From contig CANLAL010000002.1 of NCBI GenBank assembly GCA_947488045.1, positions 1 to 34,051 of the forward strand: a DNA stretch of 34,051 nucleotides, written 5' to 3'. Under the pieces are notes generated by a model, which was not told the origin of the DNA, searched no databases, and worked only from the letters and a program-made list of their open reading frames with translations. Shown in pieces: positions 6,727 through 33,299 of the stretch. The translations under genes and the position numbers were made by a program. Positions within the stretch are counted from its first letter, which is position 1. Each line of letters opens with the position of its first letter. This DNA comes from Alphaproteobacteria bacterium. Its GTDB lineage: Bacteria; Pseudomonadota; Alphaproteobacteria; 43-37.

Positions 6727-7497
6727 CTAGTCTTTAAAATGAGCCGGCTGCTTATTCAAGAAAGCATTCATTCCTTCTTGCGGCGCGCTCAAGGCGAAAA
6801 GAGAGTGAAATAATCTCCGCTCAGCTTTTAGGCCCTCAGCCAATGGAGCCTCAAAGCTACGGTTGACAGATTCTTTAATAAGCATGAGTGTACTGCGTGA
6901 AAGACTCGCTATGTGCATTGCCGTGTTGAGGGTTTCCGTTTGTAGGGTTTTGAGGGGGACAACCCGAGACACTAATCCACAGCGCTCTGCTTCTGTCGCT
7001 TCCATAAAGCGACCTGTAAGGCATAGGTCCATGGCTTTGGCTTTACCGACGGCACGTGGCATGCGCTGCGTTCCACCCACACCTGGCATAAGGCCAATGG
7101 AAATTTCAGGCAGGCTAAAACGAGCCGTGTCAGAGGCAATGATAATGTCACACATGAGCGCTAATTCACATCCAGCTCCCATGGCCATTCCTGATACGGC
7201 TGCAATTGTAGGCAGTTGACATTGCGCCAAACGTTCCCAAATTGCCAAATAGTTATGGGCAATATTCTCTTTGTAGGTGCGATCTTTCAGCTCTCTAATG
7301 TCAGCGCCTACAGCAAAAGACTGATCTGATCCTTTAAGGATGATGACACGAATATCAGGTGTCTTTTCCAGCAGATCCAGTGCATCAGCCAGCTCTCTCA
7401 TCATGTCATTTGAAAGGGCATTGAGTACAGCCGGCCGGTTAAGAGTAATTGTGCCTATGGCATCTTGGATTGTGGTGATGATATATTGATAGGCCAT
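6727..7497 (-). CDS. Enoyl-CoA hydratase/isomerase (crotonase family)
   Basis: 256 aa. LNRPAVLNAL, FAVGADIRE and AAVSGMAMGAGCELALMCDIIIAS are classic crotonase motifs. Confidence 0.9.
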   Translation of the reverse strand: MAYQYIITTIQDAIGTITLNRPAVLNALSNDMMRELADALDLLEKTPDIRVIILKGSDQSFAVGADIRELKDRTYKENIAHNYLAIWERLAQCQLPTIAAVSGMAMGAGCELALMCDIIIASDTARFSLPEISIGLMPGVGGTQRMPRAVGKAKAMDLCLTGRFMEATEAERCGLVSRVVPLKTLQTETLNTAMHIASLSRSTLMLIKESVNRSFEAPLAEGLKAERRLFHSLFALSAPQEGMNAFLNKQPAHFKD

Positions 7498-7617
7498 TTA
7501 AGTGCTCCCCATTATTTTTTATAGCTCCCACATATTGTGGGTTTTGATTAAAATATGTTTTTAAAGATCAACATCAAAATCCATGGGGCTGTGAGGCCCC
7601 GGGACATGATGAGTTAT

Positions 7618-18781: not shown

Positions 18782-20568
18782 CTACTTCATAGGCAGAAAC
18801 CCTCCCACCTGGGCGTCCCATAAGGATTGATAAAGTCCCTTGTGCATTAAAAGTTTGGAGTGGTGGCCATCTTCAACAACCTTCCCTTGATCAAAAACCA
18901 AAATCCTGTCCATCCTTAACAAGGTCGAAAGCCGATGCGCAATCACAAGCGTCGTTTTGCCTTCCATTTGATTCCATAGATTGTCTTGAATTTGGCTTTC
19001 AGTGATGGAATCGAGTTGGGAAGTGGCCTCATCCAAAATCAAGATGGGGGCATTCTTGAGAATAGCCCGCGCGATGGCGATCCTCTGCCGTTGGCCACCA
19101 GATAATTTTATTCCCCGTTCACCCACAAGCGCATCATATCCTTGGTGTAATTTTATAATGAATTTATGAGCGTCTGCCTGCTTAGCGGCTTCGATCACCT
19201 CATTGTCCGTTGCATCTCGACGACCATAGCGAATGTTTTCCATCAAAGTGCGGTGGAATAATGACGGATCTTGGGGAATCAGTGCAATATGTGCACGTAA
19301 GGAGTCTTGGATAACTTCTTTAATATCCTGACCATCAATAAAAATTCTTCCCCCAGTGAGGTCATAAAGTCTTGAGAGGAGGTTAATGAACGTCGTTTTC
19401 CCGCCTCCCGAATACCCAACCAGTCCTACTTTTTGCCCTGCTGTTAGTGTGATCGTCAAATTTTCGAAGAGTGGGTCGCTGTTTGGGTATGAAAAAAATA
19501 TATGGTCAAAATGAATTTCTCCCCCTCGGGTAATAAGGACTTTTGCATCGGGAAGATCTTGAATCTCGGGGGAGGGGAGAATCACTTGAAGCGCTTCTGT
19601 TATACGTCCATAGTAATCTGAAAAGCTTGAAACGCGTCTTGTAAGATTCCAAAGCTCGCTGAAAAGCTGACTGTTAAGCATGAGAATTAAGGCAAAGTCA
19701 CCTATTGTAATCCACTTATCTTGGTAGCCTTTGAGCAACCAATAGAAACTAATGCCTTGGAGAATAATAAAAGAGGTACTGTAACTGACCCAAATCCAAA
19801 AGTAAGCCTTCTGCAGTTCTTGTTCTGCGCTTTGTGCATCATAAAAGGCCTGACCCATGATACTTTTTTCCTTAGGCTTGCCCGTAAACAAGCGAACCGC
19901 CAGGATGTTAGAGAGGGAATCAACAACTTTTCCTGTAAGGGTGGATTGACTTTGTGCCCACGCAGCTGCAAGGCTCGTAAAATATTTTGAGCATAAAAAG
20001 GCGGTTCCAAAGAAAAGGCTGGCCCAGGCCAAGGTGAGCAAGGCAAACCGTGGACTTGTGTTCCATAGTGTGACAATAGCAATGTTTAAAGCCACAAATG
20101 TATAAAGGAAGTCATCAATGATCAGTTGAAGAAGATCTGGTACACTGGAGGAAAGGTGATTAACCTTAGTCGCAAGTGCTCCTGCAAAGACATTTTGATA
20201 ATAAGAGTGTGTTTTCTCCAATAACAAATTGAAAGCTGACTCCTCAATCTTAAGACGTAATTGTGGAATCATTTTAATTTCTACACAGTAAGTATAGAGA
20301 CGGGCGAGGCCTTCTGCCAGAATGATAAGCCCATATAAAGCGCAATGGGATAAGTTAAATAGGAAAATAAATTGGCCGAGTCGACGACAGCAATCCGGTC
20401 CAGAATCACTTTTGTGATGAACGGTTTGGCAGAAAGTGAAAGCCCCCAGACAATAATACCCGCTAACATCACTGCAATTCCAGCGTGAAAAGGTCGCAAT
20501 TGACGAATAAAATATTGGAGGACTTGGCGACCGCTTATGTTATTTTTGTACATATTGACCCCTTTCAA
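18782..20568 (-). pseudogene. ABC exporter (fused TMD-NBD, MsbA/MdlB-like), interrupted by a frameshift near 20320-20335
   Basis: The 95-aa ORF 20281..20568 encodes TM1-TM2. The 496-aa ORF 18782..20272 encodes the remaining TMD plus the NBD (GYSGGGKTT, LSGGQRQRIAIARA, ILILDEATSQLD). The downstream frame stays open upstream of its ATG and reads ...LYGLIILAEGLARLYTYCVEIKMIPQLR, which continues the TMD. Confidence 0.7.
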
Positions 20569-20863
20569 CAGGAAGGTTGAGAGTCGTGTGTTTGTAGTAT
20601 AAGTGAAAAGCGCTGAAAGTAAACAGAAAGTAAAAACATCCTCTTATTGGACGTGAATATTTATAGTGTTTAAATGAAAGGTTATTTTGAAAAGTAATAT
20701 CAATGGAATGGACTGAAGTTGAAGTGGGGCTTCATTAACAGAGGCCGGTATGGTAAGGGGGAGATTTTAAGAATATCACCTAGAAATCATCAGATCAACA
20801 CAAGGGCAAGACGGAAGGATTTTAGCTAATACATTTTTCTCCCAACCATTCACTAAAAAAGGG

Positions 20864-21663
20864 AACGAAGGTTTTGAAAAATTGATTTTTTGAGCGCATT
20901 TTGCTAAGCTGTAGTTCTTAGAAACATTAAAAAAGGAATTTAAACCATGTCTCACGCGAATCCCCTCATTCTACACCGTCATCCTGAACTTGCTTCAGGA
21001 TCTCATTGCCCATCAGCAACAGATTCCGGGTCAATGCCCTGAATGACAGTACAATATGTCATCCTGAACTTGTTTCAGGATCTCAAGGCCGTATGAAGGA
21101 ATATGCTAAGTCATCTTCAGCATGACAGTTTACAAAAGGTTGTCATCCCCACGCGGATTAAGAAAAGGTCTAAGCCAGGGTTGCAAGGTGATTCGGGGCC
21201 ACAGGAGCTCACGCGTGTAAGTGTGATGCAGTCTGACCCTTACGTGTCATCCCGGGCTTGATCCGGGATCTTATACCGGTTCTCAAAGAGATGCTGAATC
21301 AAGTTCAGCATGACAGTTTATAAAAAGTTTTCATTTTACAAAAGGCTGTCATCCCCACGTGGATTAAGAAAAGCTCTAAGCCAGGATTGCAAAGTGATTC
21401 AGGGTCACAAGGGATCACGCGTGTAAGTGTGATGCAGTCTGACCCTTTACGTGTCATCCCGGACTTGATCTGGGATCTAACCTTGACCTTAAACACTTAA
21501 AATATATGGATATCCATAATGCACATGGATATCCCACTCAACCCCGCAGAAAGAAAGGAAAGTATATGCAAAAAAAAATAAAATACGAAAATGATATTAT
21601 TTTGGCCCAAAGCCACAGCCTGCAAGGAAAAAATCGGGATATCCCATGGATATCCAGGATATC
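20864..21663. repeat. Left arm of a large imperfect inverted repeat (outer about 95-nt block, MITE-like mosaic, inner about 195-nt block)
   Basis: The reverse complement of 29443-30182 aligns with this arm in the same block order. The inner block is about 95 percent identical by eye. ORF-track peptides from the two arms are near-identical (MDIHNAHGYPTQP...; GSDCITLTRV...). Confidence 0.85.
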
Positions 21664-21664
21664 C
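21506..21664. promoter_or_regulatory. GGATATCC palindrome array (2 boxes, then an about 100-nt A/T-rich spacer, then 3 boxes), left copy
   Basis: GGATATCC occurs at about 21508, 21527, 21637, 21648 and 21657. The first box is the perfect 12-mer palindrome ATGGATATCCAT. Confidence 0.35.
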
Positions 21665-21718
21665 ATAAACGCCAACAGAAAAGGATAGCAAAAGATGAAT
21701 AGATTTAAGAGAGCAACC

Positions 21719-23683
21719 TTAGAAAAAGCTTTGGGGGTCAATGTCCACGTGGCATGTGATCGTCCGTGGTAACTTGAATTGAGAAAGCCAGGTATTGATA
21801 TAGTTTTGAGGAGTCAACGATTTAGGTGTCTTGATTAAAAATCGCCATCTAAATTTTCCTCGAATTTTATATAAGGCTGCAGGGGCGGGGCCCAAAACCT
21901 TGACCGACTCCAGAATGGGGGCTTTGCGCGCGAGAGCTTTGACACATTTTTCAAGGAGCACTTCATCTTTGCTCGAAAGAATCAAGCTGGCCAATCGTCC
22001 AAAAGGTGGCCAGCCAAAAGCCTTCCGTTGTTCCATTTCTGCAGCCATGAATGCATCTCGGTCCGACAGCACAAGCGCTTCCATTAAAGGGTTTGTGGGG
22101 TCATAGGTTTGCAAAAAAACACGCCCCAGGGTGTGGTGTCGCCCCGCACGCCCTGCCACCTGCATGAGAAGTTGAAAGGTGCGCTCTCCTGATCTTAAGT
22201 CACCCCCGACTAAACCTAAGTCTCCGTCGATGATGCCAACGCAGGAAAGGCCCTTAAAGTCATGGCCTTTGGCAATAAGCTGTGTACCTACGATTACATC
22301 CACTTCGCCCTTTTGAATGCCGGCGACGGCTTCTTCTACAGCCTTGAGATTAGTGAGTTTATCCGAACTCATGATCAGGATCCGGGCATTAGGCAGCAAC
22401 GCTTGCACTTCATCACTGATGCGTTCCACCCCTGGGCCGCAGGGCAATAAGGTATCCTCTTCATGACAGGAAGGGCATGCTTTCGGGACAGGCGCTGTAT
22501 AGCCACAATGGTGGCATTGGATATGCTCCACGTGCTTGTGCTTGACGAGCCATGCGGCACAGTCTGGGCAGGCAAACCGGTGTCCACAAGAGCTACATAG
22601 AGTGACTGGTGCGTATCCACGGCGGTTGAGGAACAAAAGGGATTGCTCTCCAGCGGCAAACGTTTCCAAAAGGGCTTCGCGCAAGGGGGCGCTAATCCAA
22701 GATCCGCGCCCCTTATGGCCACGCATATCAATCAATTTGACAGAAGGGAGTTGGTTGAGATTGAAGCGATGTGGCAGGCTAAGATAGCCATATCGCTTGG
22801 AGTGAACGTTTTCCATAGTTTCCAAACAGGGGGTTGCAGAGGCAAGGACTACAAGAGCGCCTTCTAATTTTCCGCGAACAATGGCCATGTCCCGTCCATT
22901 GTAGATCACACCGTCTTCTTGTTTGTAGCTAGGGTCATGCTCCTCATCCACAATGATCACTTTAAGGTTCGGAAAGGGTAGGAATAAGCTAGACCTTGCA
23001 CCCACCACCACTCTGGCTTGACCATGAATGACCTGATGCCAGACTTTACGCTTTTGGGCAGGGGTAATTTCCGAGTGCCAGATGCATGGACGTTCTCCAA
23101 ACCGTGCTGTATAGCGTTCAATCCACTGGGTGCTTAAGGCAATTTCAGGCAAAAGTACAAGGGTTTGGAAGTCTTGTGCCATAGCTGCTTCAATAAGGTC
23201 AAAGTAAACCTCTGTTTTGCCTGACCCCGTCACACCATCAAGCACCGTCACGTGATAGGTGCCCAGTTGCGTGCGCAAGACATGTGCTGCCTCTTTTTGG
23301 TTTTCTGTTAATGCTTTAATATCAGGGGAAGTCGGTAATTTAGGAGAGTCCAAATGCTTAAGAGGGTCACCCAATAGTTTATCAGGTAGTAGCATTTTTA
23401 AGACCAGGCCTGGAGGATTCATGGTATAGGAAGCCATCCAGTGGATAAAATCCATTAAATGAGGCCGTAAATGGGGTAACTGATAGATCTTCTCAAGGGG
23501 TTTCATGTGTGAAACGCCTTCCCCAGCAAGATTCACAATAACACCATCTAATAATCGTGAACCAAAGGATACACGCACCCATTGACCTATATGAGGTGGG
23601 TTTTCTGAGTCCACTAAATAAGAAAAGTATCCGGCTAAAGGAACAGGTAGCAAAACACTCACAATGATCTCAGTGTCAGTCAT
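21719..23683 (-). CDS. priA: Primosomal replication-restart helicase PriA
   Basis: Trimmed to MTDTEIIVSVLLPVPLAGYFSYLV. Walker A GVTGSGKTEVY, DEEHD, Cys-rich zinc region CSSCGHRFACPDCAAWLVKHK...CHHCGY...CPSC. The ATG lies inside the last codons of ftsA. Confidence 0.9.
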   Translation of the reverse strand: MTDTEIIVSVLLPVPLAGYFSYLVDSENPPHIGQWVRVSFGSRLLDGVIVNLAGEGVSHMKPLEKIYQLPHLRPHLMDFIHWMASYTMNPPGLVLKMLLPDKLLGDPLKHLDSPKLPTSPDIKALTENQKEAAHVLRTQLGTYHVTVLDGVTGSGKTEVYFDLIEAAMAQDFQTLVLLPEIALSTQWIERYTARFGERPCIWHSEITPAQKRKVWHQVIHGQARVVVGARSSLFLPFPNLKVIIVDEEHDPSYKQEDGVIYNGRDMAIVRGKLEGALVVLASATPCLETMENVHSKRYGYLSLPHRFNLNQLPSVKLIDMRGHKGRGSWISAPLREALLETFAAGEQSLLFLNRRGYAPVTLCSSCGHRFACPDCAAWLVKHKHVEHIQCHHCGYTAPVPKACPSCHEEDTLLPCGPGVERISDEVQALLPNARILIMSSDKLTNLKAVEEAVAGIQKGEVDVIVGTQLIAKGHDFKGLSCVGIIDGDLGLVGGDLRSGERTFQLLMQVAGRAGRHHTLGRVFLQTYDPTNPLMEALVLSDRDAFMAAEMEQRKAFGWPPFGRLASLILSSKDEVLLEKCVKALARKAPILESVKVLGPAPAALYKIRGKFRWRFLIKTPKSLTPQNYINTWLSQFKLPRTITCHVDIDPQSFF

Positions 23684-24911
23684 TAAGTAGGGTCTTGAAT
23701 TTTCCCCAGAGGCTTGCAGAAGGAGAAATGACATCTCTTGCTGAGAACTGATCTGCAAACTCTCTGGCCGCATAAGCAATGATGCCTGCACATGTTGCAA
23801 ATGAAGGGGATGCATATAGTCCATCCATACCTTGGGCTTGACCAAGTCTCACTTGTTTGCCAAGAACGTGAGTGGCAAAATCCCGCATGCCCGTTAATTG
23901 ACTCGCGCCTCCTGTCAAAATCACCCGATTCATAAGGGCGATTTCCGGGTGGGTGATGAGCTTTTTCTTTAAGTGGATAAAAATTTCTTCAAGCCTAGGC
24001 TGAATAATTTGGTTGAGTTGGGCTTTTGTAATGCTTGATTCATTGCCACCCTCTGAGTCACCAATTTGTGGCACCAGAATGGACTCTCTCTCATCACTAT
24101 TGAGTGTTGCTGCAGAGCCATAAAGCGCCTTAATCCGCTCAGCATGTGCTAATGGAGTTGAGAGAATGCGAGAGATATCTTGGGTAATGTGATTGCCACC
24201 TAAGGAGACGCTCGTCACAAATGTCGGGCGTTGGTGCACATAGGTAATGAGTGAGGTTGATCCACCCCCCATGTCAATGAGAATAGAGCCAAGATCCATC
24301 TCATCCGGGACGAGTGTTGCAAGTCCTGAGGCATGCGGAGCAGCCACGAATGCAGCCACATCAAGATGCGCTGCAGAAAGGCAGGCAGTAAAATTGCGTA
24401 ATACGTTGGAAGGTGCTGTCATGACATGTATATGAGCTTTTAGCTTACTACCGTACATGCCCTTGGGATCTAAAATTCCCTTTTGATCATCGAGCTCATA
24501 AGATAATGAAACGGCATGTAACACCTCATGACCCCGTTCATGCATGACTTCCTGCACATGTTTCCAAAGTAGCCCAAGGTCATCTTGCCTTACAGGGTGG
24601 GAGGATAAAGGTATTTCGAGGGTGTGAATGTTTGATGAGATAATTGTAGCGGGTATGGCCACAAAAATTTTACGCACAGTTTCGTCCGCCTCGTGTTCAG
24701 CTGAGTTGACGGCTTCGGCTACAGCAGAAGTCATCGCTTCCATATCCACGATTATGCCACGTTTTAAGCCGCGTGCCATGTGTTGCCCAACACCAATAGT
24801 TTGTGTTTTGTCCTCATCTATGATACGGGCGATTGCACAATTAACTCGTGTGGACCCAATATCGAGGGCTGCAATAATGTCGTTCTTGTGAGATGGTTTT
24901 CTTTTGAACAT
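23676..24911 (-). CDS. ftsA: Cell division protein FtsA
   Basis: 411 aa, actin-like ATPase. ALDIGSTRV..., DMGGGSTS, GGASQLTGM. Position is after ftsQ. Confidence 0.93.
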   Translation of the reverse strand: MFKRKPSHKNDIIAALDIGSTRVNCAIARIIDEDKTQTIGVGQHMARGLKRGIIVDMEAMTSAVAEAVNSAEHEADETVRKIFVAIPATIISSNIHTLEIPLSSHPVRQDDLGLLWKHVQEVMHERGHEVLHAVSLSYELDDQKGILDPKGMYGSKLKAHIHVMTAPSNVLRNFTACLSAAHLDVAAFVAAPHASGLATLVPDEMDLGSILIDMGGGSTSLITYVHQRPTFVTSVSLGGNHITQDISRILSTPLAHAERIKALYGSAATLNSDERESILVPQIGDSEGGNESSITKAQLNQIIQPRLEEIFIHLKKKLITHPEIALMNRVILTGGASQLTGMRDFATHVLGKQVRLGQAQGMDGLYASPSFATCAGIIAYAAREFADQFSARDVISPSASLWGKFKTLLND

Positions 24912-24912
24912 T

Positions 24913-25776
24913 TTAAGTCTCTTTTGCTGTACCTTTTGTTTGTAGCTTTAACCCTGCCTCAGGAATCATTTTTAAAATAATACGTCCTTCTAGGCGTAAG
25001 TCCACAATTTTGATTACGAGTGTATCAAGAAGTTTTTTCTCCGCTAAATCATTTAACTTCATAAATGCAGTATCTAAGTCACTTTCTGGAAGGTAGACTT
25101 GAGTGCCATTGGTGAGAAGTAAATTCCATCGACGTTTCCCAATACACACAGCAGTTTTCACAAGCGAATGAACTGTAGGGTATTGCTCTAACTTTTGAAA
25201 TAAAGGTGGAGCGTTTTTAGCGGCAGCCTGCCCTGCGATTGAAGGGAGTTCCTTAAACTTTTCTGAAACCTTATCTGATAAGATTACGCCTTCCTTATCT
25301 ACGAGTCTCATGGCTTTACCTTCATGCCAAATTGCTATGGGCTCACGTTCAATGACATGGATCATGAGTTGATCAGGGAATTTTTTTTTCACAATGGCAG
25401 ACCATACCCAAGGTAATTGTTCAATGCGTCCTCTAATAAGATCGGGGTCTAATTGTAAGAGGGCTTGCTCCGGTGTGAGTTGAGCCGCTTTTAAAATAAC
25501 ATCAATATTTGTGTACTTTAAAGGCTTAATATCAACTGTTGTTACTACAAAGCCAGATTTTTTAAAAAATGATTCATTGCAGTTATGAATTTTTTCGCTA
25601 ATCCAATGGGGTGCATTGATGTACCAGAGGATAAAGCAAAGCCCCACAACGGAGATTGGGGACATAATTGGCCAAAAGAGCTGGCGTAACAAAACACGTG
25701 AGTATCTTTGTTTATTGGCAGCTTTCTTTTTTTTAGGAAGCATGCGACGGGGGATGGGTTTTAAATCTGGTCTCAT
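24913..25776 (-). CDS. ftsQ: Cell division protein FtsQ
   Basis: 287 aa. Basic N-terminus, a single TM segment (FWPIMSPISVVGLCFILWYI), a POTRA-like region, and dcw context. Confidence 0.85.
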   Translation of the reverse strand: MRPDLKPIPRRMLPKKKKAANKQRYSRVLLRQLFWPIMSPISVVGLCFILWYINAPHWISEKIHNCNESFFKKSGFVVTTVDIKPLKYTNIDVILKAAQLTPEQALLQLDPDLIRGRIEQLPWVWSAIVKKKFPDQLMIHVIEREPIAIWHEGKAMRLVDKEGVILSDKVSEKFKELPSIAGQAAAKNAPPLFQKLEQYPTVHSLVKTAVCIGKRRWNLLLTNGTQVYLPESDLDTAFMKLNDLAEKKLLDTLVIKIVDLRLEGRIILKMIPEAGLKLQTKGTAKET

Positions 25777-26735
25777 GAGAGTTCACCTATAGAAATGCCT
25801 AATCGTTTGATCTCCCATTCGAGCATCACTCCTGAATGATTCCACACACGATCGCGTACTTCTTCACCGAGGCTTTCAATGTCCATTGCTGTAGCATTGC
25901 CTTGATTGATTAAAAAGTTACAGTGAAGGGGGGATACAATGGCACCCCCTCTTTCAAGTCCACGACAGCCTGCCGCATCAATCAACTCCCATGCTTTGCA
26001 AGTGCTTGGGTTTTTAAAAGTGGATCCTCCTGTGCGAGATCTTACAGGTTGGGTTTGCTCACGCATTTCCAAGTAAGTCTGCATTTTTTTGGTGATCTCC
26101 TCTTGAGGAGTTATAGTCCCTTTCATGTGGACACTCGTAATAATATGTGTTGAGGGAAGTGATGCGTATCGATAAGAAAAGCCGCATGAAGCGCGATCAA
26201 GATGAAGAATATTGCCTTTTTCATCTACGGATTCAACTTCCGTAACAAGATCATTCATCTCTCGACCATAGGCCCCCGCATTCATTCGAATGGCGCCCCC
26301 AATAGTTCCCGGAATGCTCACTAAAAACTCGAGTCCACCCAAGGCATGCTCACGTGCGACTTCTGAGACCGTACGATCAAGTGCCCCAGCTCCTACCTGT
26401 AAAGTCTCATTGCTTACATGAATACTGGTAAATGATGGCCCGCCCAGTCTGACAGTCACACCCGGGATACCCCCATCCCGGATGATAACATTTGACCCTA
26501 CGCCTAATACTGTGAGTGATTCGCTATATTCATTAGCCAGTTGAACCAAAGTACAAAGATCGTCCACATCCTGTGGGCGGACGACTGTCTGCCCGTTCCC
26601 GCCCACACGAAACCATGTAAGTGGACCAAGTGGCGCATTAAAGGTCACTTTCCCCCGGATGTGGCTTGTCAGTGCATCCTGGAAAGGTCGATTATTTGGC
26701 CACATGGGTTTCCCCGGAGCTTTGCAGTAAGGCAT
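25773..26735 (-). CDS. murB: UDP-N-acetylenolpyruvoylglucosamine reductase
   Basis: 320 aa. APLGPLTWFRVGG, GVGSNVIIRDGG, GGSTFKNP. The start may be the internal Met at 26705. 4-nt overlap with ftsQ. Confidence 0.9.
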   Translation of the reverse strand: MPYCKAPGKPMWPNNRPFQDALTSHIRGKVTFNAPLGPLTWFRVGGNGQTVVRPQDVDDLCTLVQLANEYSESLTVLGVGSNVIIRDGGIPGVTVRLGGPSFTSIHVSNETLQVGAGALDRTVSEVAREHALGGLEFLVSIPGTIGGAIRMNAGAYGREMNDLVTEVESVDEKGNILHLDRASCGFSYRYASLPSTHIITSVHMKGTITPQEEITKKMQTYLEMREQTQPVRSRTGGSTFKNPSTCKAWELIDAAGCRGLERGGAIVSPLHCNFLINQGNATAMDIESLGEEVRDRVWNHSGVMLEWEIKRLGISIGELS

Positions 26736-28170
26736 TTAGGGCTGTCGGAAGTTGATTGGCCCACTGCGAAATACTTCCTGCCCCCATACAAACGATCATA
26801 GATCCAGCAGGGATAGGGCGCTCTGAAGTGGGGGCAAAAAGCATATGAAGATGAGCGGTTAGTTCAGTTTCATTTCCAACAGAATCAATAGGTTTGCTTG
26901 GATAGGCCCGTTTAAGGGCTTGAGCAAAGGCTATGTCATTAATTCCCTCAATGGGGTCTTCCCCCGCACTATAAATAGGACAAACCACGAGACGATCTGC
27001 CAGGTGGAGTGCATCCACAAATTGTTGAAACAAATGAGACAAACGGCTATATCGGTGTATTTGCAGGACTGCAATCACCTCGGACTTTGTGGCATAGCGT
27101 GCTGCCTTCAATACCGCATCAATTTCAACAGGGTGGTGAGCATAATCATCGATAATGACGGTGCCCGACACCTCACCCACACGGGTGAAGCGTCTTTTGA
27201 CCCCGCTAAATTGGGCCAGAGCTTGTAAAATGATGCCTGGCGCATATCCCATCTCAATCGCAACAGCCACCACAACGAGAGCATTTTGGATATTGTGCTT
27301 TCCATATAGTGGAAGCTGAATATCTTTTAGCGTCAACCAATTGAGGTTTTTAGCTTTAATGACAGGGGAAGTAGGATTAATCACCACATCGAAAGTAGCG
27401 CCTTCTGGGCACATACGGATATTGATTGCTTGAATATCGGCTCCCGGCTCCAACCCATAGGTCAATTTCCGCCGATCAGTCACGCGATTCGCGAGACTTT
27501 TAACAACAGCATGATCACTACACAAAATGGCCAGACCATAAAATGGGGTGTTGTGCACGAAAGTTTCGAAAGCGCTGACAAGCTTATCAAAGGTTCCGTA
27601 GTTTTCCATGTGCTCAGCGTCAATATTGGTGACAACGGCAATCGTAGGAGGAATCTTCAAAAAACTTCCGTCCGATTCATCCGCTTCTACCACAAACCAC
27701 TTGCCCGACCCCAGTCGGGCGTTTGTGCCATAGGCATTAATGATTCCACCATTGACGACCGTTGGGTCAGCGCCTGCGCTATCCATGAGCGCTGCACATA
27801 AGGAGGTGGTCGTCGTTTTTCCGTGGGTACCCGATATACAGATGGATTGGCGTAATCGCATGAGTTCTGCTAGCATTTCTGCACGACGGATGACGGGAAT
27901 GCTCAATGCACGCGCTTGGATAAGCTCAGGGTTATCTCCTTTGATGGCTGAGGATGTAACCACCACCGCTGCACCTTCCACATGAGCTGCTGCGTGGCCA
28001 ACAGAAACATGGATACCCTTTGCGCACAGCCGTTTTACATTAGCGTTGTTGGAGCTATCGCTACCAGTGACTGTAAAGCCTGAGTCACTCAGGACTTCAG
28101 CAATACCACTCATGCCGATACCACCAATACCAATAAAATGAAGCGGACCTGTTCCTGGGATATGACTCAC
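26692..28170 (-). CDS. murC: UDP-N-acetylmuramate--L-alanine ligase
   Basis: 492 aa. HFIGIGGIGMSGIAEVL, GTHGKTTTTSL, DDYAHHP. Confidence 0.93.
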   Translation of the reverse strand: MSHIPGTGPLHFIGIGGIGMSGIAEVLSDSGFTVTGSDSSNNANVKRLCAKGIHVSVGHAAAHVEGAAVVVTSSAIKGDNPELIQARALSIPVIRRAEMLAELMRLRQSICISGTHGKTTTTSLCAALMDSAGADPTVVNGGIINAYGTNARLGSGKWFVVEADESDGSFLKIPPTIAVVTNIDAEHMENYGTFDKLVSAFETFVHNTPFYGLAILCSDHAVVKSLANRVTDRRKLTYGLEPGADIQAINIRMCPEGATFDVVINPTSPVIKAKNLNWLTLKDIQLPLYGKHNIQNALVVVAVAIEMGYAPGIILQALAQFSGVKRRFTRVGEVSGTVIIDDYAHHPVEIDAVLKAARYATKSEVIAVLQIHRYSRLSHLFQQFVDALHLADRLVVCPIYSAGEDPIEGINDIAFAQALKRAYPSKPIDSVGNETELTAHLHMLFAPTSERPIPAGSMIVCMGAGSISQWANQLPTALNALLQSSGETHVAK

Positions 28171-28181
28171 TTATGCAATCC

Positions 28182-29291
28182 TTATTCTTTTGGAGAGTTC
28201 AATAGACTCTCGATGACCTTAACCATTTCGTGGGAGGCATTTGGCTTTTGCATTTGCCTTAGTTGTTGTGCCATTTCCCGTCGTTTCATGTTGTCTTTTA
28301 TCACATGTTCAAGGATTTTTGCCAACTCATTTTCATTTAAAGTGCTCTCTTTTACTACAAGAGCAGCTCCCCTTTTCGCCAGCTCTTGCGCATTGACCGT
28401 TTGATGATCATCCATGGCATTGGCATAAGGAATGAGCAAGGCTGGTGTGCCAACACACATGAGCTCGCTTAATGTGGCTGCCCCCGCACGGCAGATGGCT
28501 AAATCCGCTTGTGAAAGAAGAGCGGGTACCGTATCAAAAAATGACTGCACATGAGCTGTGATTCCTGCATTCGCATAAAGCGAGGTTACGGCGGTTAGAT
28601 CTTCTGGCCTAGCTTGATGATAGACGTTGAGCTTCTTACGTAAGGCCGGAGGCAACAGAGCAATGGCGGGTGCCACAACGTGGCTCATGATCCGGGCCCC
28701 TTGGCTGCCGCCCAAAATGAGCAACGTCACACATGATTCTGTTGGACTCCAATGAACATTCCTAAATACGGGCCGGACAGGGTTGCCGGTGTAGGTGCAC
28801 TTGGATAACCATCGAGATTTCAGGCCCTTGAGTGTCATAAAGCCTGTTGTAATGCAGGTGGCGAGGGGCGTAAAGAGCCGAGTGACACGGCCTGCATAGG
28901 AATTTTGCTCATGAAGCATTAACCTCGCACCCGCAAGCGCTCCTGCCAGAAGGGCTGGCGCAGAGACATACCCTCCAAAACCCACGACGAGCTGAATACG
29001 ATGCTTATGCATCCAGCGCCATAGGCATAGGGTTTGCCAAAGTCCTTTTACAGCAAAGAGGGCGTGCCCTTGGAGTCCATTTAAAGGTGCCAGTTGCGTA
29101 CGCTTAACAGGCGTTTTAGCCGAGAGTGTTTCTGGGAAGTGCGTGCGCTCATCGGTGATCACATGGGTAGGGTAACCTGCCTGCTGAAGTGCCTCATTGA
29201 GGGCAAGAGCAGGAAAGAAGTGCCCACCAGTACCGCCTGCCACAAGGGCAATGGTTGGTTTAGTCGAAGCTCCCGTCGTTTTTCGAATCAT
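28182..29291 (-). CDS. murG: UDP-N-acetylglucosamine--N-acetylmuramyl-(pentapeptide) pyrophosphoryl-undecaprenol GlcNAc transferase
   Basis: 369 aa. GGTGGHFFPALAL, ICRAGAATLSEL, and position upstream of murC. Confidence 0.93.
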   Translation of the reverse strand: MIRKTTGASTKPTIALVAGGTGGHFFPALALNEALQQAGYPTHVITDERTHFPETLSAKTPVKRTQLAPLNGLQGHALFAVKGLWQTLCLWRWMHKHRIQLVVGFGGYVSAPALLAGALAGARLMLHEQNSYAGRVTRLFTPLATCITTGFMTLKGLKSRWLSKCTYTGNPVRPVFRNVHWSPTESCVTLLILGGSQGARIMSHVVAPAIALLPPALRKKLNVYHQARPEDLTAVTSLYANAGITAHVQSFFDTVPALLSQADLAICRAGAATLSELMCVGTPALLIPYANAMDDHQTVNAQELAKRGAALVVKESTLNENELAKILEHVIKDNMKRREMAQQLRQMQKPNASHEMVKVIESLLNSPKE

Positions 29292-29442
29292 TGTAGGCTT
29301 ATCCTTGTTGTGGTTAATAGGCGCTTAAACTTAGTTCTAAGCAGTTTATCCATTGTTTCCAAGACTTTCAAAAGATTTATAGCTTGGCTTTGCTTTGTGT
29401 TGATAAAGCATCTTTTATGCTCCTTTTGGGTTATGTTGATGT

Positions 29443-29600
29443 GATATCCTGGATATCCCATGGATATCCCTGTTTTTTCCTTGTAGACTGTGGCTTTGGG
29501 CCAAAATGATATCATTTTCGTATTTTATTTTTTTTTGCATATACTTTCCTTTCATTCTGGGGGGTTGAGTGGGATATCCATGTGCATTATGGATATCCAT
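29443..29600. promoter_or_regulatory. GGATATCC palindrome array, right copy, about 150 nt upstream of murG
   Basis: Boxes at about 29443 (partial), 29451, 29462, 29572 and 29591, with the same A/T-rich spacer. Confidence 0.35.
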
Positions 29601-29627
29601 ATATTTTAAGTGTTTAAGGTCAAGGTT

Positions 29628-29766
29628 AGATCCCGGATCAAGCCCGGGATGATATCTTGCCAAAAGATCCCGGATCGCTTCCGGGATGACATCTCGCCAA
29701 AAGATCCCGGATCAAGCCCGGGATGACATATCGCCAAAAGATCCCGGATCAAGTCCGGGATGACAG
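29628..29766. repeat. Four head-to-tail 37-nt hairpin units (MITE/REP-like)
   Basis: The unit aaaagATCCCGGatcaagcCCGGGATgacatctcgcc has period exactly 37 (g of gatccc at 29629, 29666, 29703, 29740). Two more units lie at 29965-30030. Oppositely oriented single units lie at 20978, 21058, 21246 and 21453. Confidence 0.85.
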
Positions 29767-30220
29767 TAAAAAAGCCCAGATTGACACGAAAGGGTCAGAC
29801 TGCATCACACTTACACGCGTGAGCCTCTGTGGCCCTGACTCACTTTGCAATCCTGGCTTAGACCTTTTCTTAATCCGCGTGGGGATGACAACTTTTTGTA
29901 AGATGACAGACTTTTCTAAACTGTCATGCTGAACTTGATTCAGCATCTCTTTGAGAACCGGTATAAGATCCCGGATCACTTCCGGGATGACATCTCGCCA
30001 AAAGATCCCGGATCAAGCCCGGGATGACAGTAGGCTAATTGCAGAATAACGATGGAAAATGACAGGAAAATGGCGATTAAATGATTGAAAATGAGACATG
30101 GTTGACATTCCTTTTTTAATGTTTTTGAGGATTACAGCCTAACAAAATGCACTCAAAAAATCAATTTTTATAAACCTTCGTTTCACTTTGGTGTTTTTTA
30201 TGACAAAAGATGTGAAAAGA

Positions 30221-30925
30221 CTATTGACGAGGGTAACCGCGGACTGTTCGGGAACTTATGCCAGGCTCTTCTTGCAGAATCTCCATGTAGGCATCATTGA
30301 TCCGTACAATGCCTGCTTTTAAGTTGTATTCATAAAGATCCATTAAATCAGGATTAGAAGTAGACTCTTTTGCGGTTTCGCATAGGGCCCGTAATGCATG
30401 TTTATACGCCTGAATTGTGGCATGAGGCCACCGTCGTACCAATGCCATGTTTTCACGGCTGGTGGCACCGCACAAATCGGGATGTTCAAAGCAGCGTGAA
30501 ATGCTGACAGAATCTCTTGTGCTAAACGCTTGGTTAAGGACGCCCTCAGATAGGGCTGTATGCGCATCTGAGGACTCATAAAGTTGATCTAACAATTTGG
30601 AAATTGAAACGGGTTGACAAGATGTTGATGGCCGACCTGCCTCTGCCTTGATTGGGCCTTCTGATTCGTTCATATCTTCAGTGGTTATGATTTCTTGAGG
30701 AGAGTTTTCACTCTTATCAGAGTCTTCTATTGCTGAGTCTGATACAGGGGGGGAAGCCTCATGAGTGATTGGCTCCTCTTGTTCATCTTCCATTACAGTG
30801 GAAAGCCGACCAACTTTCTGTGGATAGAGATGAGTATCTGTCTTGCGCTCACCTTCATGCCCTTGACCATAAGTTAGACTTGATAAAAGTAACCCTGCTG
30901 TAATAGTGATGGCGAATTTTTTCAT
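30221..30925 (-). CDS. Hypothetical secreted protein (signal peptide, acidic disordered region, Cys-containing helical C-terminal domain)
   Basis: 234 aa. MKKFAITITAGLLLSSLTYG signal, an E/D/S-rich stretch, then a 4-Cys C-terminal half. I recognise no family. Confidence 0.6.
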   Translation of the reverse strand: MKKFAITITAGLLLSSLTYGQGHEGERKTDTHLYPQKVGRLSTVMEDEQEEPITHEASPPVSDSAIEDSDKSENSPQEIITTEDMNESEGPIKAEAGRPSTSCQPVSISKLLDQLYESSDAHTALSEGVLNQAFSTRDSVSISRCFEHPDLCGATSRENMALVRRWPHATIQAYKHALRALCETAKESTSNPDLMDLYEYNLKAGIVRINDAYMEILQEEPGISSRTVRGYPRQ

Positions 30926-31210: not shown

Positions 31211-31759
31211 GTGAACGGGGATATGAATCAGGTTGCGCAGCGTTACGCGCGGGCATTATTTTCTCTCAGCGTTGAGGCAAAAAAGGTGGACCTGGTGCGC
31301 CAGGAAATAAACCGGCTTAGTTTATTGGCAAAAAGCTCTCCGCAGCTTAACACCTTTATGGCAGCAAAGCGATTTGGCCGCAAAGCCCATGCGGATGCGC
31401 TGGAACAGTGGGCGACAAAAGAAAAGGTGAGCCCTTTGCTTCAGCGGTTTCTTACCTTCGTTTGTATGCATGGACGGGCTGAGCATTTGGGACAAATCGC
31501 GCAGGCCTTTGAAAGCCTTGCGTGCCAAGCCGAAAACCAAATGCGTGCTCAAGTGACATCAGCTGTTTCTCTAACCAAAGATCAGCAAAAATTGGTGACA
31601 GAGGCATTGGCGCACGCGTTTAAAAAAGAGATCTTTTTGGATCAAGCAGTGGATGAGCATCTGCTGGGCGGAATGACCATTCGCACGGGGTCCATGTTAA
31701 TTGATGGTTCGTTAAAATCGAAGCTGGCTCAGCTTCAGCAGGTTATGAGAGAGGGTTAA
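31211..31759 (+). CDS. atpH: F1Fo ATP synthase subunit delta (OSCP)
   Basis: 182 aa with a GTG start (an ATG five codons in is also possible). [12 protein letters not shown] is the typical OSCP start, the end is [20 protein letters not shown], and the gene precedes atpA. Confidence 0.9.
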
Positions 31760-31763
31760 TACG

Positions 31764-33296
31764 ATGGAACTTCGTGCGGCAGAAATTTCTGCAATCTTGA
31801 AAAAGCAAATTGAAGAATTTGATCTGAAGGCGGATGTTTCAGAGGTAGGTATGGTTCTTTCCGTGGGTGATGGTATTGCCCGCGTTGAGGGGCTTGACCA
31901 TGTGCAGGCCGGTGAAATGGTAGAATTTTCCAGTGGCGTTCGGGGTATGGCTCTCAATCTTGAAGTGGACAATGTGGGTATCGTGCTTTTCGGCGATGAT
32001 CGCAAAATCTTCGAAGGCGATATTGTTAAGCGCACTAAGACGATTGTAGACACACCCATTGGAAAGGGTTTGCTCGGTCGTGTGGTAGATGCCTTGGGTA
32101 ACCCCATCGATGGTAAAGGTCCACTTAAAAATGTGAAGCGTGGCCAGGTTGAGGTGAAAGCTCCAGGCATTATTGCCCGTAAGAGCGTTCATGAGCCCAT
32201 GCAGACAGGTTTGAAAGCCATTGATACTTTGGTCCCTGTGGGCCGTGGTCAACGTGAGCTCATCATTGGTGACCGAGAGACGGGTAAAACCGCTGTGGCC
32301 ATTGATGCCATCTTGAACCAGAAAACCATCAATGAAGGTAAAGATGAATCTCAGAAATTGTTTTGTGTGTATGTGGCCATTGGTCAAAAGCGCTCCACGG
32401 TGGCTCAGATTGTCCGCACACTGGAAGAAAAGGGCGCCATGGATTACACCATTGTGGTGGCGGCCACGGCTTCTGACCCCGCGCCTTTGCAATTTTTAGC
32501 ACCTTACACGGGCTGTGCTATGGCGGAATACTTCCGTGACAATGGGATGCATGCCCTGATTGTGTATGATGATTTGTCTAAACAAGCTGTGGCTTATCGT
32601 CAAATGTCTTTGCTTTTGCGTCGTCCACCAGGACGAGAAGCTTATCCCGGTGACGTGTTTTACTTACACTCTCGCTTGCTCGAGCGTTCGGCCAAGATGA
32701 GTGATGCCCAAGGTGCAGGTTCCATGACGGCATTGCCGATCATCGAAACCCAAGCGGGTGACGTTTCTGCTTACATTCCCACCAACGTCATTTCGATTAC
32801 GGACGGCCAGATTTTCTTGGAAACGGATTTGTTCTATAAAGGTATCCGCCCGGCCATCAACGTGGGTCTTTCAGTGAGCCGTGTGGGTTCTGCTGCGCAG
32901 GTAAAGGCTATGAAGCAAGTGGCGGGTTCCATTAAGCTGGAATTAGCGCAATATCGTGAAATGGCCTCCTTTGCTCAGTTTGCCTCTGACTTGGATGCTT
33001 CTACGCAAAAATTGCTTCAGCGGGGTGAACGGTTGACTGAGTTGCTCAAGCAGGCGCAGTTTTCGCCATTGACCATGGAACAGCAAGTGGCGTCTATTTT
33101 TGCGGGTGTGAAGGGATATCTCGACACGATTCCGGCCAAACAGGTCAACCGTTTTGAGCAAGAATATCTCAAGCAGCTGAGCAATAGCGCGCCGGAGATT
33201 TTGAATGCAATCCGTGATGAAAAGCAGATTTCTATAGATACGGAAGCCAAATTACGGGCCTTTTTGGAAAAATTTGTGCAGGATTTTGTGAGCTAA
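31764..33296 (+). CDS. atpA: F1Fo ATP synthase subunit alpha
   Basis: 510 aa. [13 protein letters not shown]alker A, and highly conserved throughout. Confidence 0.97.
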
Positions 33297-33299
33297 AGC

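What the first reader, a model, noticed from the sequence alone, without database searches (positions are those of the whole stretch)
20864..30182. Inverted repeats of about 0.75-0.8 kb bracket the entire 7.8-kb priA-ftsA-ftsQ-murB-murC-murG block
Region 20864-21663 is the imperfect reverse complement of 29443-30182, and the blocks occur in the same order. There is an outer block of about 95 nt (..aacgaaggttt..attgattttttgag.gcattttg...aacattaaaaaaggaat...aaccatgtctca), a mosaic of MITE-like units, and an inner block of about 195 nt that is about 95 percent identical. The inner ends of the arms lie about 55 nt beyond the priA stop and about 150 nt upstream of the murG start, so six essential genes sit exactly between the arms. 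No transposase lies within or beside the arms. Arms this long are substrates for RecA-mediated inversion. Inversion would flip an essential cell-wall, division and replication-restart operon relative to its surroundings while keeping identical flanking sequence. If the arm carries the murG promoter, the left copy would also fire convergently into the 3' end of priA. The dcw cluster is broken at exactly these arms (no ftsW upstream of murG, no ftsZ after ftsA), which suggests the repeats took part in the rearrangement that created this block.
Basis: partly seen in the sequence, partly recalled or inferred. Interest (0 to 1): 0.7.

Follow-up and report, generated by a model that had tools for sequence, protein, structure and literature searches.

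The report
Dispersed repeats flank inverted cell-division operon
Two inverted copies of a small non-coding repeat found at several places in this uncultured alphaproteobacterium's assembly bracket six essential cell-wall, division and replication-restart genes, and that block is flipped compared with its relatives; it is an old, fixed, repeat-associated inversion, not a switch or a transposon.

Summary
Window 20864-21697 is the collinear, imperfect reverse complement of 30182-29409, and the two arms bracket priA-ftsA-ftsQ-murB-murC-murG.

The arms are not unique to this locus. They are two members of a dispersed mosaic repeat: an outer block O, a variable run of 27-nt hairpin units and M units, and an inner block I. 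The same O-to-I architecture lies at two unrelated loci in the same metagenome assembly. A third locus carries the hairpin units and I without O.

Three relatives lack the arms. In the two whose contigs reach the atp operon, the block points the same way as atpHAGDC, with priA next to atpH. Here the block is inverted relative to atp and to an upstream ECH gene.

Third-codon GC skew of the block genes has switched sign (-0.11 here; +0.14 and +0.34 in relatives). It now matches other minus-strand genes. The inversion is therefore real, old and fixed, not a fast flip-flop.

The loss of ftsZ after ftsA and the ftsW|murG break both occur in arm-free relatives, so the arms did not create the block.

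Most likely, recombination between inverted repeat copies flipped the block. That causal step is inferred. The arms are far less diverged than the age of the inversion predicts.

This is an ordinary kind of event involving a new repeat family.

The parts
20864..21697 (+). Left arm: one copy of the dispersed mosaic repeat, read O to I on the + strand, with its I end facing the 3' end of priA.
   Evidence: for arm-to-arm homology. for homology to copies in L125 and L126.
20864..20954 (+). Left-arm O (outer) block. It has a weak promoter-like TTGATT-N17-TAAGCT, then the near-invariant AAAAAGGAAT-N7-ATGTCTC (ribosome-binding site plus start codon).
   Evidence: Four-copy alignment; homology starts at ACGAAGGTTT. 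The promoter reading is by eye and was not listed by the scan.
20955..21478 (+). Left-arm variable mosaic. Hairpin units lie at 20978-21002, 21058-21082, 21246-21270, 21290-21314 (minus strand) and 21453-21477. The M unit is duplicated (21126-21271 = 21332-21478, 90%).
21479..21697 (+). Left-arm I (inner) block, with five GGATATCC boxes.
21566..21688 (+). Small ORF inside the left I block (MQKKIKYENDIILAQSHSLQGKNRDIPWISRISINANRKG), reading toward priA.
   Evidence: Thirteen homologous predicted peptides on other contigs; about 12 cluster representatives among 1.84 billion.
21508..21664 (-). Two terminator-like hairpins on the minus strand of the left I block: 21664-21637 followed by CGAUUUUUUC, and 21534-21508 followed by AUAUAUUUUA. 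The first starts 55 nt downstream of the priA stop.
   Evidence: Predicted folding energies -13.7 and -15.8 kcal/mol.
21719..29291 (-). The bracketed block: priA 21719-23683, ftsA 23676-24911, ftsQ 24913-25776, murB 25773-26705, murC 26692-28170, murG 28182-29291. It is inverted relative to the atp operon and the ECH gene when compared with relatives.
   Evidence: for gene families and for gene calls. for synteny. for GC3 skew.
29409..30182 (-). Right arm: a second copy of the repeat, read O to I on the minus strand, with its I end facing the murG start. Its parts are I 29409-29627, four tandem 37-nt hairpin units 29628-29765, M 29772-29891, a hairpin pair 29922-29992, a hairpin 30003-30029 and O 30092-30182.
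29415..29540 (-). Small ORF inside the right I block (MQKKIKYENDIILAQSHSLQGKNRDIHGISRISHQHNPKGA), co-directional with murG.

Best explanation
The two arms are members of a lineage-specific, non-autonomous, dispersed mosaic repeat. Its layout is an outer O block, then a variable run of 27-nt hairpin units and about 105-nt M units, then an inner I block with GGATATCC boxes and a small ORF. One copy lies at each end of the murG-to-priA block, in inverted orientation.

In the ancestor, the block pointed the same way as the atp operon and as replication. Homologous (RecA-type) recombination between inverted copies of the repeat at its two ends flipped the 7.6-kb block.

The inverted state became fixed long ago. 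The arms have since been kept similar by gene conversion or by repeat turnover. Today the arrangement is a structural relic. It could still recombine rarely, because the arms share a 74-nt exact run and 210 nt at 94%.

Shown: the repeat family, the inverted orientation, and its age and fixation. Inferred: that recombination between the arms caused the inversion.
For: (a) The arms are collinear inverted repeats lying exactly at the block ends.

(b) The same composite occurs at other loci of the same assembly. L125 9783-10101 carries O+P+I, and L126 5528-6016 carries O+M+P+I. L127 149-456 carries a hairpin pair plus I. Block identities to the arms are 75-97%. In the I block, the right arm is closer to L126 (96.8%) than to the left arm (94.0%). 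The arms are therefore family members, not a private local duplication.

(c) Synteny. In L002 (79% FtsA identity) and in the P0003/L124 clade (59%), the order is (murG-)murC-murB-ftsQ-ftsA-priA followed by atpHAGDC, all co-directional. In blastn against L002, ECH and atp align plus/plus while priA-to-murG aligns plus/minus.

(d) Pooled GC3 skew of five block genes is -0.112 in the window, +0.144 in L002 and +0.344 in L124 (Fisher p = 3.7e-9 and 4.7e-22). The atpH+atpA control is unchanged (p = 0.76). The block is indistinguishable from other minus-strand genes of the window (p = 0.50). At shared four-fold sites, block genes show 69 cases of L002-G/window-C against 31 of the reverse. Control genes show 18 against 20.

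(e) The relatives carry no arm sequence at the corresponding junctions.

(f) The only two copies of the repeat in the 34-kb window sit in exactly the two gaps that bound the inverted segment, out of roughly 11 intergenic gaps of at least 100 nt. My rough estimate is about 1 in 100 by chance, including the required inverted orientation.

(g) In the outgroup L124, hairpin units of the same GTCAT type already sit just downstream of priA. That junction therefore carries such units in the outgroup as well.
Against: Age mismatch. Full re-equilibration of GC3 skew implies on the order of one substitution per silent site since the inversion. Four-fold-site divergence from L002 is 1.2-2.4. The arms differ by only 6% in I, 8.5% in M and 19% in O. 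Either they were homogenised by gene conversion or are under constraint, or the present copies arrived after the inversion.

The left flank of the block is not conserved among relatives. The left breakpoint therefore cannot be pinned to the arm.

The orientation is known from a single contig. No read-level or population data are available.

I did not prove that the other repeat-bearing contigs belong to the same organism. The case rests on the shared assembly, GC of 42-45% and housekeeping gene content.
Confidence: 0.6

Rival explanations
1. The inversion happened first, by an unrelated mechanism. Copies of the dispersed repeat later inserted independently into the two new junctions, which are long, permissive intergenic gaps. 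Their inverted orientation is then a coincidence.
For: The arms are much less diverged (6-19%) than the age of the inversion implied by full GC3-skew amelioration. The right arm's I block is closer to the L126 copy than to the left arm, as expected for independent insertions. The region upstream of murG differs even between close relatives, so it is a rearrangement-prone site.
Against: It needs two independent insertions at exactly the two ends of the inverted block, both with the I end facing the block. I estimate that at roughly 1 in 100. In the M unit the arms are each other's closest relatives (91.5% against 84-86%), and they share unique linker sequence.
Confidence: 0.25
2. The repeat is a non-autonomous derivative of an insertion sequence. 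Intramolecular replicative transposition of one copy into the far end of the block generated the second, inverted copy and the inversion in a single event.
For: In L127 an IS630-like helix-turn-helix transposase fragment lies directly upstream of hairpin units plus an I block, in the same orientation. The O block has a conserved ribosome-binding site and ATG, as the 5' end of a lost gene would. The core of the I block has imperfect 24-nt inverted ends (pair I19).
Against: The composite has no terminal inverted repeats, and I could not recognise target-site duplications. IS630-family elements are generally regarded as cut-and-paste, not replicative (my own knowledge). The arms are not each other's closest relatives in the O and I blocks. 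No full-length element or homologue of the fragment was found.
Confidence: 0.07
3. The arms make the block a reversible, possibly regulated, invertible segment. Flipping would toggle the essential operon between head-on and co-directional orientation, or between promoter contexts.
For: The arms retain a 74-nt exact run and 210 nt at 94% identity. That should be enough for occasional RecA-dependent recombination (my inference; no threshold was measured here). Because the arms are symmetric, the block keeps the same neighbouring sequence in either orientation.
Against: No recombinase gene lies in or beside the arms. The arms are about 0.8 kb of diverged mosaic, not short recombinase sites. GC3 skew of the block equals that of long-term minus-strand genes, so the block has spent nearly all its recent history in one orientation.
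Confidence: 0.04
4. The inverted orientation is a metagenome mis-assembly across the repeats.
For: The contig comes from a short-read k-mer assembly. Another contig of the same assembly breaks inside a copy of the repeat.
Against: The longest exact run shared by the arms is 74 nt, below k=141. Third-codon skew of all the block genes has shifted to the inverted orientation, which an assembly error cannot produce.
Confidence: 0.02

Closest known systems
Neisserial intergenic mosaic elements (NIMEs): arrays of 20-bp dRS3 palindromes (ATTCCC-N8-GGGAAT) flanking 50-150-bp RS repeats (PMC1797815)
   Same: Both are non-coding intergenic arrays. Short palindromic units separate repeat segments of about 100 nt. 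Unit number varies between copies. Both are dispersed at many loci, often beside operon ends, and both are proposed recombination substrates. The hairpin unit here (GTCAT-CCCGGG-CTTGA-TCCGGG-ATC) has the same design as dRS3. Its partner hairpins in other phyla include ATTCCCGC...GCGGGAAT, which fits the dRS3 consensus.
   Different: The organism is an uncultured alphaproteobacterium. The unit sequence differs. The array is bounded by fixed O and I end blocks, which NIMEs as described in that paper do not have. No dRS3-targeting phage or recombinase was seen.
Chromosomal inversions by homologous recombination between inverted dispersed repeats such as IS copies, rrn operons and prophages (Achaz et al. 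2003, as cited in PMC12863080; general knowledge)
   Same: Two inverted homologous copies lie at the ends of a segment whose orientation differs between related genomes. No site-specific recombinase is needed.
   Different: The repeats are small non-coding mosaics, not IS elements or rrn operons. The segment is a 7.6-kb essential operon, not a large inversion symmetric about the origin or terminus. The event put essential genes head-on to replication and was still fixed.
Bacterial MITEs, Correia elements, and REP/BIME clusters
   Same: All are short, non-autonomous, multi-copy and intergenic. They have hairpin-forming ends and may carry promoter-like or terminator-like sequence. The I-block core has 24-nt imperfect inverted ends.
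   Different: The whole O-to-I composite has no terminal inverted repeats and no recognisable target duplication. Copy sizes range from about 320 to 830 nt because of internal unit gain and loss.
Programmed invertible segments (Hin/Gin/Fim-type invertons, shufflons)
   Same: A DNA segment is bracketed by inverted repeats.
   Different: There is no invertase, the arms are about 0.8 kb long and diverged, the content is six housekeeping genes, and the skew evidence argues against frequent switching.
Composite transposon
   Same: Two inverted repeat copies flank a gene block.
   Different: The arms carry no transposase. The enclosed genes are core genes in the same order in arm-free relatives, so the block is not mobile cargo.

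Membership tests
Repeat-mediated (homologous-recombination) chromosomal inversion | Two homologous sequences in inverted orientation at the ends of the segment | tested here: met
   collinear arms of 834 and 774 nt, with block identities of 86-94%.
Repeat-mediated (homologous-recombination) chromosomal inversion | Orientation of the segment differs from related genomes, with the breakpoints at the repeats | tested here: inconclusive
   The orientation difference is clear. The right-hand breakpoint falls between the block and atpH, where the right arm lies. The left flank is not conserved in any relative, so the left breakpoint cannot be mapped.
Repeat-mediated (homologous-recombination) chromosomal inversion | The repeats existed before the inversion | tested here: inconclusive
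   Arm divergence of 6-19% is far below the age implied by skew amelioration. Gene conversion could explain the gap, but it was not shown.
Repeat-mediated (homologous-recombination) chromosomal inversion | Both orientations detectable, or RecA dependence demonstrated | not testable with these tools
   No reads, and only one contig carries these genes.
Dispersed non-autonomous repeat (MITE- or NIME-like) | Multiple copies at unrelated loci | tested here: met
   Five sequenced copies lie on four contigs of assembly ERZ27280207. Thirteen I-block ORF homologues were found.
Dispersed non-autonomous repeat (MITE- or NIME-like) | No transposase encoded within the element | tested here: met
   All ORFs in the arms are under 65 aa on the left and at most 82 aa on the right, with no family hits.
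Dispersed non-autonomous repeat (MITE- or NIME-like) | Terminal inverted repeats and target-site duplication (MITE definition) | tested here: not met
   Four-copy alignments of both ends show defined boundaries. The two termini are not complementary and no flanking direct repeats appear. Only the I-block core has 24-nt inverted ends, at 75% (pair I19).
Dispersed non-autonomous repeat (MITE- or NIME-like) | Short palindromic units separating repeat segments, with variable unit number (NIME definition, PMC1797815) | tested here: met
   The 27-nt hairpin units flank M units and spacers. Copies carry from one unit (L125) to six (right arm).
Site-specific invertible switch (inverton) | Recombinase (invertase or integrase) gene within or adjacent | tested here: not met
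   NCBIfam and Pfam scans of all flanking ORFs. The only hit is a sub-threshold Phage_int_SAM_1 match (E = 0.001, 19.7 bits against a cutoff of 22.3) in a 234-aa protein that has a signal-peptide-like N terminus and no room for a catalytic domain.
Site-specific invertible switch (inverton) | Frequent switching between orientations | tested here: not met
   Block GC3 skew of -0.112 equals that of other minus-strand genes (-0.085, p = 0.50).
Composite transposon | Flanking elements supply or respond to a transposase, and the enclosed genes are mobile cargo | tested here: not met
   No transposase was found. The enclosed genes are in the same order in arm-free relatives.

The most novel reading that the evidence does not exclude
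The O-to-I composite may be a functional, portable operon-boundary cassette. Read inward, it would supply a promoter-like region, a leader and a conserved small ORF. Read outward, its GGATATCC hairpins followed by U-runs would act as an intrinsic terminator. With one copy at each end in mirror orientation, the essential murG-priA operon would keep the same upstream and downstream signals in either orientation. That would make an otherwise costly inversion of essential genes tolerable, and perhaps reversible. A second possibility is that the 27-nt hairpin unit belongs to a cross-phylum, dRS3-like family recognised by a still unidentified recombinase.
Probability: 0.08. Interest if true: 0.6.

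Novelty: new member of a known kind. Interest (0 to 1): 0.3.

Why it matters
This is a clean small-scale case of an essential cell-wall, division and replication-restart operon flipped to head-on orientation and then fixed. The likely substrates are still in place, and codon-position skew serves as an internal clock. It also defines a previously undescribed mosaic repeat family in an uncultured alphaproteobacterial lineage whose nearest named FtsA match is Caedimonas, at 43% identity. The hairpin units of that family resemble neisserial dRS3 and recur across many phyla. None of this changes current understanding, because repeat-associated inversions and intergenic mosaic repeats are both well known.

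Tried and rejected
- **Pattern scans for the I and M blocks.** The I-block 29-mer gave no hit in GTDB species representatives or in JGI metagenomes. The M-block 30-mer gave no hit in JGI metagenomes. These collections therefore say nothing about dispersal of those blocks. Dispersal came to light only through the small ORF.
- **Arms against other collections.** The left arm gave no match against plasmids or phages in distant blastn.
- **Rfam.** A scan of 20400-30400 at E <= 1 returned only two chance-level hits.
- **Literature search by hairpin sequence.** It returned only unrelated primer hits.
- **Coding test on the I-block ORF.** All 5 differences between the arms downstream of the ATG are synonymous. 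The four-copy alignment shows these are two shared haplotypes (left arm = L125, right arm = L126), not independent events. Other family members vary freely in the middle of the peptide. I therefore do not claim protein-level selection.
- **Parent insertion sequence.** The IS630-like fragment in L127 found no homologues. Two context look-ups (P0128 and P0132) were not on record.
- **Element ends.** I could not recognise target-site duplications or terminal inverted repeats of the composite.
- **Relatives' junctions.** No arm-like sequence turned up at the L002 or L124 junctions, even with 7-nt words.
- **Tandem-inversion-duplication origin.** I considered a local inverted duplication of the priA-downstream region and rejected it as the main model. 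The arms belong to a dispersed family and are not each other's closest relatives in the O and I blocks.
- **Arm-borne murG promoter.** I do not favour it. The best consensus matches lie in the unique spacer.


Full report
**1. The observation**

The inverted repeat is real and collinear.
- The repeat finder reports inverted pairs of 210 nt at 94% (21454-21663 / 29443-29652) and 204 nt at 91% (21245-21448 / 29789-29992).
- It also reports 137 nt at 90% and 98 nt at 86% (20857-20954 / 30092-30189).
- blastn of each arm against the window extends the inner match to 245 nt (21454-21697 / 29652-29409, 90.6%).
- blastn also joins the outer part into one gapped alignment, 20864-21259 / 30182-29772. 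It finds no further copy in the window.
- A global alignment shows the same order of blocks in both arms.

The genes between the arms are priA, ftsA, ftsQ, murB, murC and murG, all on the minus strand. To the right lie a 234-aa ORF of unknown function and atpH-atpA. To the left lie a split ABC exporter and parC.

The window is part of ENA metagenome contig ERZ27280207:k141_2268476, 43.2 kb long.

**2. Anatomy of an arm**

Reading from outside toward the block, each arm has three parts.

(i) An O block of about 90 nt.
- It carries a weak promoter-like TTGATT-N17-TAAGCT. This is my reading; the consensus scan does not list it.
- It also has an almost invariant AAAAAGGAAT-N7-ATGTCTC.

(ii) A variable mosaic.
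- It is built from 25-27-nt hairpin units, GTCAT-stem-CTTGA-stem-ATC. There are ten in the window, all inside the arms, with none expected by chance.
- It also contains an M unit of about 105 nt.
- M is duplicated in the left arm. The right arm has four tandem 37-nt hairpin repeats.

(iii) An I block of about 220 nt.
- It holds all nine GGATATCC octamers of the window, against 0.35 expected.
- It has a 40-codon ORF preceded by a ribosome-binding site.
- On the opposite strand it has two hairpins followed by U-runs, at -13.7 and -15.8 kcal/mol. These would terminate transcripts leaving the block.
- In the left arm the first of these hairpins starts 55 nt after the priA stop.

**3. The arm is a dispersed repeat**

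Exact-pattern scans for the I and M blocks found nothing in GTDB representatives or JGI metagenomes.

A protein search with the I-block ORF found 13 related predicted peptides on other contigs. All three that could be traced lie in the same assembly.

| Locus | Contig | Blocks present | Size | Position |
|---|---|---|---|---|
| L125 9783-10101 | k141_4065695 | O + one hairpin + I | about 320 nt | upstream of an unrelated 323-aa gene |
| L126 5528-6016 | k141_4131463 | O + M + hairpin + I | about 490 nt | upstream of coaBC |
| L127 149-456 | k141_1874302 | hairpin pair + hairpin + I (no O block) | about 310 nt | at a contig start, convergent with truA |

The block coordinates come from blastn. 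Four-copy alignments define sharp boundaries. Homology begins at ACGAAGGTTT and fades about 35 nt after the last GGATATC box.

Pairwise identities:
- I block: right arm-L126 96.8%, left arm-right arm 94.0%, left arm-L125 88.6%.
- O block: the arms are 81% alike, no closer to each other than to the other copies.
- M unit: the arms are each other's nearest, at 91.5%.

The arms are therefore ordinary members of a family with mosaic relationships, not a private duplication. A full-library search finds only about 12 cluster representatives of the ORF among 1.84 billion proteins, so the family is narrow.

I infer that the other contigs belong to the same organism. The grounds are the shared assembly, GC of 42-45% and housekeeping gene content. 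This is not proven.

**4. The block is inverted relative to its relatives**

FtsA has only two close relatives in the protein collection: P0002 at 79% identity and the P0003 cluster at 59%.
- In L002 the order is murG (split)-murC-murB-ftsQ-ftsA-priA, a few small genes, then atpHAGDC, all on one strand.
- In the P0003/P0121 clade (including GCA_001897475.1) the order is murE-murF-mraY-murD-ftsW-murG-murC-murB-ftsQ-ftsA-priA, a LysR gene, then atpHAGDC.
- More distant relatives at 43% identity, including a Caedimonas MAG, have the canonical ...ftsW-murG-murC-murB-ddl-ftsQ-ftsA-ftsZ.

In blastn of the window against L002, the ECH gene (6750-7499) and the atp operon (31662-34051) align plus/plus. 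priA-to-murG (21717-29252) aligns plus/minus.

With two outgroups agreeing, the window's orientation is the derived one. None of these relatives carries arm sequence.

**5. An independent check, and a clock**

On the coding strand, GC skew at third codon positions is positive for plus-strand genes and negative for minus-strand genes in all three genomes. It therefore tracks the replication strand, not transcription.

| Gene set | Window | L002 | L124 | Test |
|---|---|---|---|---|
| Five block genes, pooled | -0.112 | +0.144 | +0.344 | Fisher p = 3.7e-9 and 4.7e-22 |
| atpH + atpA (control) | +0.22 (212 G / 136 C) | +0.24 (232 G / 142 C) | not pooled | p = 0.76 |
| Other minus-strand genes of the window | -0.085 | - | - | block vs these, p = 0.50 |

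At identical four-fold codon families, the block shows 69 cases of L002-G/window-C against 31 of the reverse. The controls show 18 against 20.

Three things follow.
- The inversion is not an assembly artefact. The arms also share no exact run longer than 74 nt, below the assembler's k of 141.
- It was the block, not the atp side, that changed strand.
- The block has sat in its present orientation long enough to equilibrate fully. I estimate that at roughly one substitution per silent site. This rules out a switch that spends comparable time in both states.

**6. What the arms did and did not do**

The missing ftsZ and ddl, and the ftsA-priA-atp linkage, are traits of the whole clade. They are present where the upstream dcw genes are intact and no arms exist.

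The ftsW|murG break is shared with the arm-free L002 and P0123 genomes, whose upstream neighbours differ from each other.

The arms therefore did not carve out the block. Their link is to its inversion. The only two repeat copies in the window occupy exactly the two gaps that bound the flipped segment, in mirror orientation. I estimate this at roughly 1 in 100 by chance among about 11 usable gaps.

The simplest mechanism is RecA-type crossing-over between inverted family copies. That is the standard route to bacterial inversions (general knowledge; see PMC12863080, which cites Achaz et al. 2003).

Hairpin units of the same GTCAT type lie just downstream of priA in the outgroup L124. That junction therefore carries such units in the outgroup as well.

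**7. The main difficulty**

The arms differ by only 6% (I), 8.5% (M) and 19% (O). Silent sites between the window and L002 are saturated, with four-fold-site divergence of 1.2-2.4, and the block's skew has fully re-equilibrated.

Neutral arms as old as the inversion should be far more diverged. Three explanations are possible:
- gene conversion among the arms and other family copies keeps them similar;
- the arms are under constraint;
- the present copies arrived after the inversion.

I cannot separate these with one contig. I therefore give the causal model 0.6 and the later-insertion model 0.25.

**8. Other models**

- Composite transposon: excluded, because there is no transposase and the gene order is conserved in arm-free relatives.
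- Site-specific inverton: not supported. No recombinase is present. The 234-aa neighbour has only a sub-threshold SAM-like hit and a signal-peptide-like N terminus. The skew argues against frequent switching.
- Transposition-coupled inversion: a minor possibility. L127 shows an IS630-like helix-turn-helix fragment (HTH_28 E = 4e-5, HTH_Tnp_IS630 E = 6e-4) directly upstream of hairpins plus I. This hints that O-to-I composites are internally deleted derivatives of an insertion sequence. No full-length element or homologue was found, and the composite has no terminal inverted repeats.

**9. Comparison with known systems**

In architecture the arms most resemble neisserial intergenic mosaic elements. 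Those are arrays of 20-bp dRS3 palindromes (ATTCCC-N8-GGGAAT) separating 50-150-bp RS repeats. They vary in unit number and are proposed recombination substrates (PMC1797815).

The resemblance may be more than formal.
- The exact hairpin pattern TGTCATCCCGG-N4-GATCYGGGATCT occurs in more than 118 stretches of GTDB genomes from many phyla.
- It does not occur in IMG/VR viral contigs.
- In 54 of 121 matches an inverted partner hairpin ending in ATGAC follows within 140 nt. Its stems vary and include TCCCGC...GCGGGA, which fits the dRS3 consensus.
- The 70-nt pair at 21245-21315 is 82-84% identical to copies in Treponema and Rhodothermia MAGs.

I found no name for this family. It has no Rfam match and the literature search by sequence found nothing.

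**10. Verdict**

They are an ordinary dispersed repeat, they did not create the block, and the inversion is ancient and fixed.

This is a new member of a known kind of event. The new repeat family and its cross-phylum hairpin unit are by-products worth noting.

Noticed in passing
window 21245-21315 and 29922-29992; GTDB loci L003-L120: The 27-nt hairpin unit TGTCAT-CCCGGR-CTTGA-TCCGGG-ATCT is conserved almost to the base in more than 118 stretches of genomes from many phyla, including Treponema, Fibrobacter, Patescibacteria, Balneolaceae, Thermotogae, Bacteroidota and several proteobacterial classes. It is absent from IMG/VR. About 45% of matches have an inverted partner hairpin ending in ATGAC within 140 nt, with co-varying stems that include the Neisseria dRS3-like ATTCCCGC...GCGGGAAT. 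No Rfam family matches. This looks like a cross-phylum hairpin-pair element or recombinase target.
   Followed up: partly
L127 1-460 (ERZ27280207 k141_1874302): The contig starts inside a copy of the repeat. An IS630-like helix-turn-helix transposase fragment (Pfam HTH_28 4e-5, HTH_Tnp_IS630 6e-4) lies directly upstream of a hairpin pair and an I block. The O-to-I composite may be a deletion derivative of an insertion sequence. A protein search with the fragment found nothing.
   Followed up: partly
window 18782-20568 (minus strand): The MsbA-like ABC exporter left of the left arm is split into a 95-aa N-terminal ORF (20281-20568) and a 496-aa ORF (18782-20272). This is a frameshift or stop, so either a pseudogene or a sequencing error.
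   Followed up: no
L002 5684-6747: In the closest relative, murG is split into 309-aa and 64-aa ORFs. In its sister contig (P0123) murG is intact at 358 aa. The genes upstream of murG differ between these two close relatives, so this junction is rearrangement-prone across the clade.
   Followed up: partly
L124 13395-13700 (GCA_001897475.1, just downstream of priA): The outgroup carries GTCATTCCCGC-type hairpin units and half-units, plus a glutamate/arginine-rich 41-codon ORF (called in the near-identical L123), at the same junction where the window has its left arm.
   Followed up: partly
window 21508-21664 and 29451-29598: All nine GGATATCC octamers of the window lie in the two I blocks (0.35 expected). 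Three of them are spaced 10-11 bp apart. They could be a protein-binding array as well as hairpin stems.
   Followed up: partly
window 13744-14910 (plus strand): A 388-aa protein with a signal-peptide-like N terminus, made largely of Thr/Ser-rich tandem repeats (TTSRTSTTMTPHATTG...). It has no family hit and sits in a region absent from L002.
   Followed up: no
window 30221-30925 (minus strand): The 234-aa ORF between the right arm and atpH has no homologue in L002. It has a signal-peptide-like N terminus and only a sub-threshold Phage_int_SAM_1 hit (E = 0.001, residues 164-200). It is probably not a recombinase.
   Followed up: partly
whole window: By third-codon GC skew the plus strand is the G-rich, presumably leading, strand. 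Most genes in the window, including opp, parC and now the dcw/priA block, are on the minus strand and so head-on to replication.
   Followed up: partly
window 14930-15280 (plus strand): The L31 ribosomal protein ORF is 116 aa from its first start codon, but the family match begins at residue 44. The true start is probably internal.
   Followed up: no
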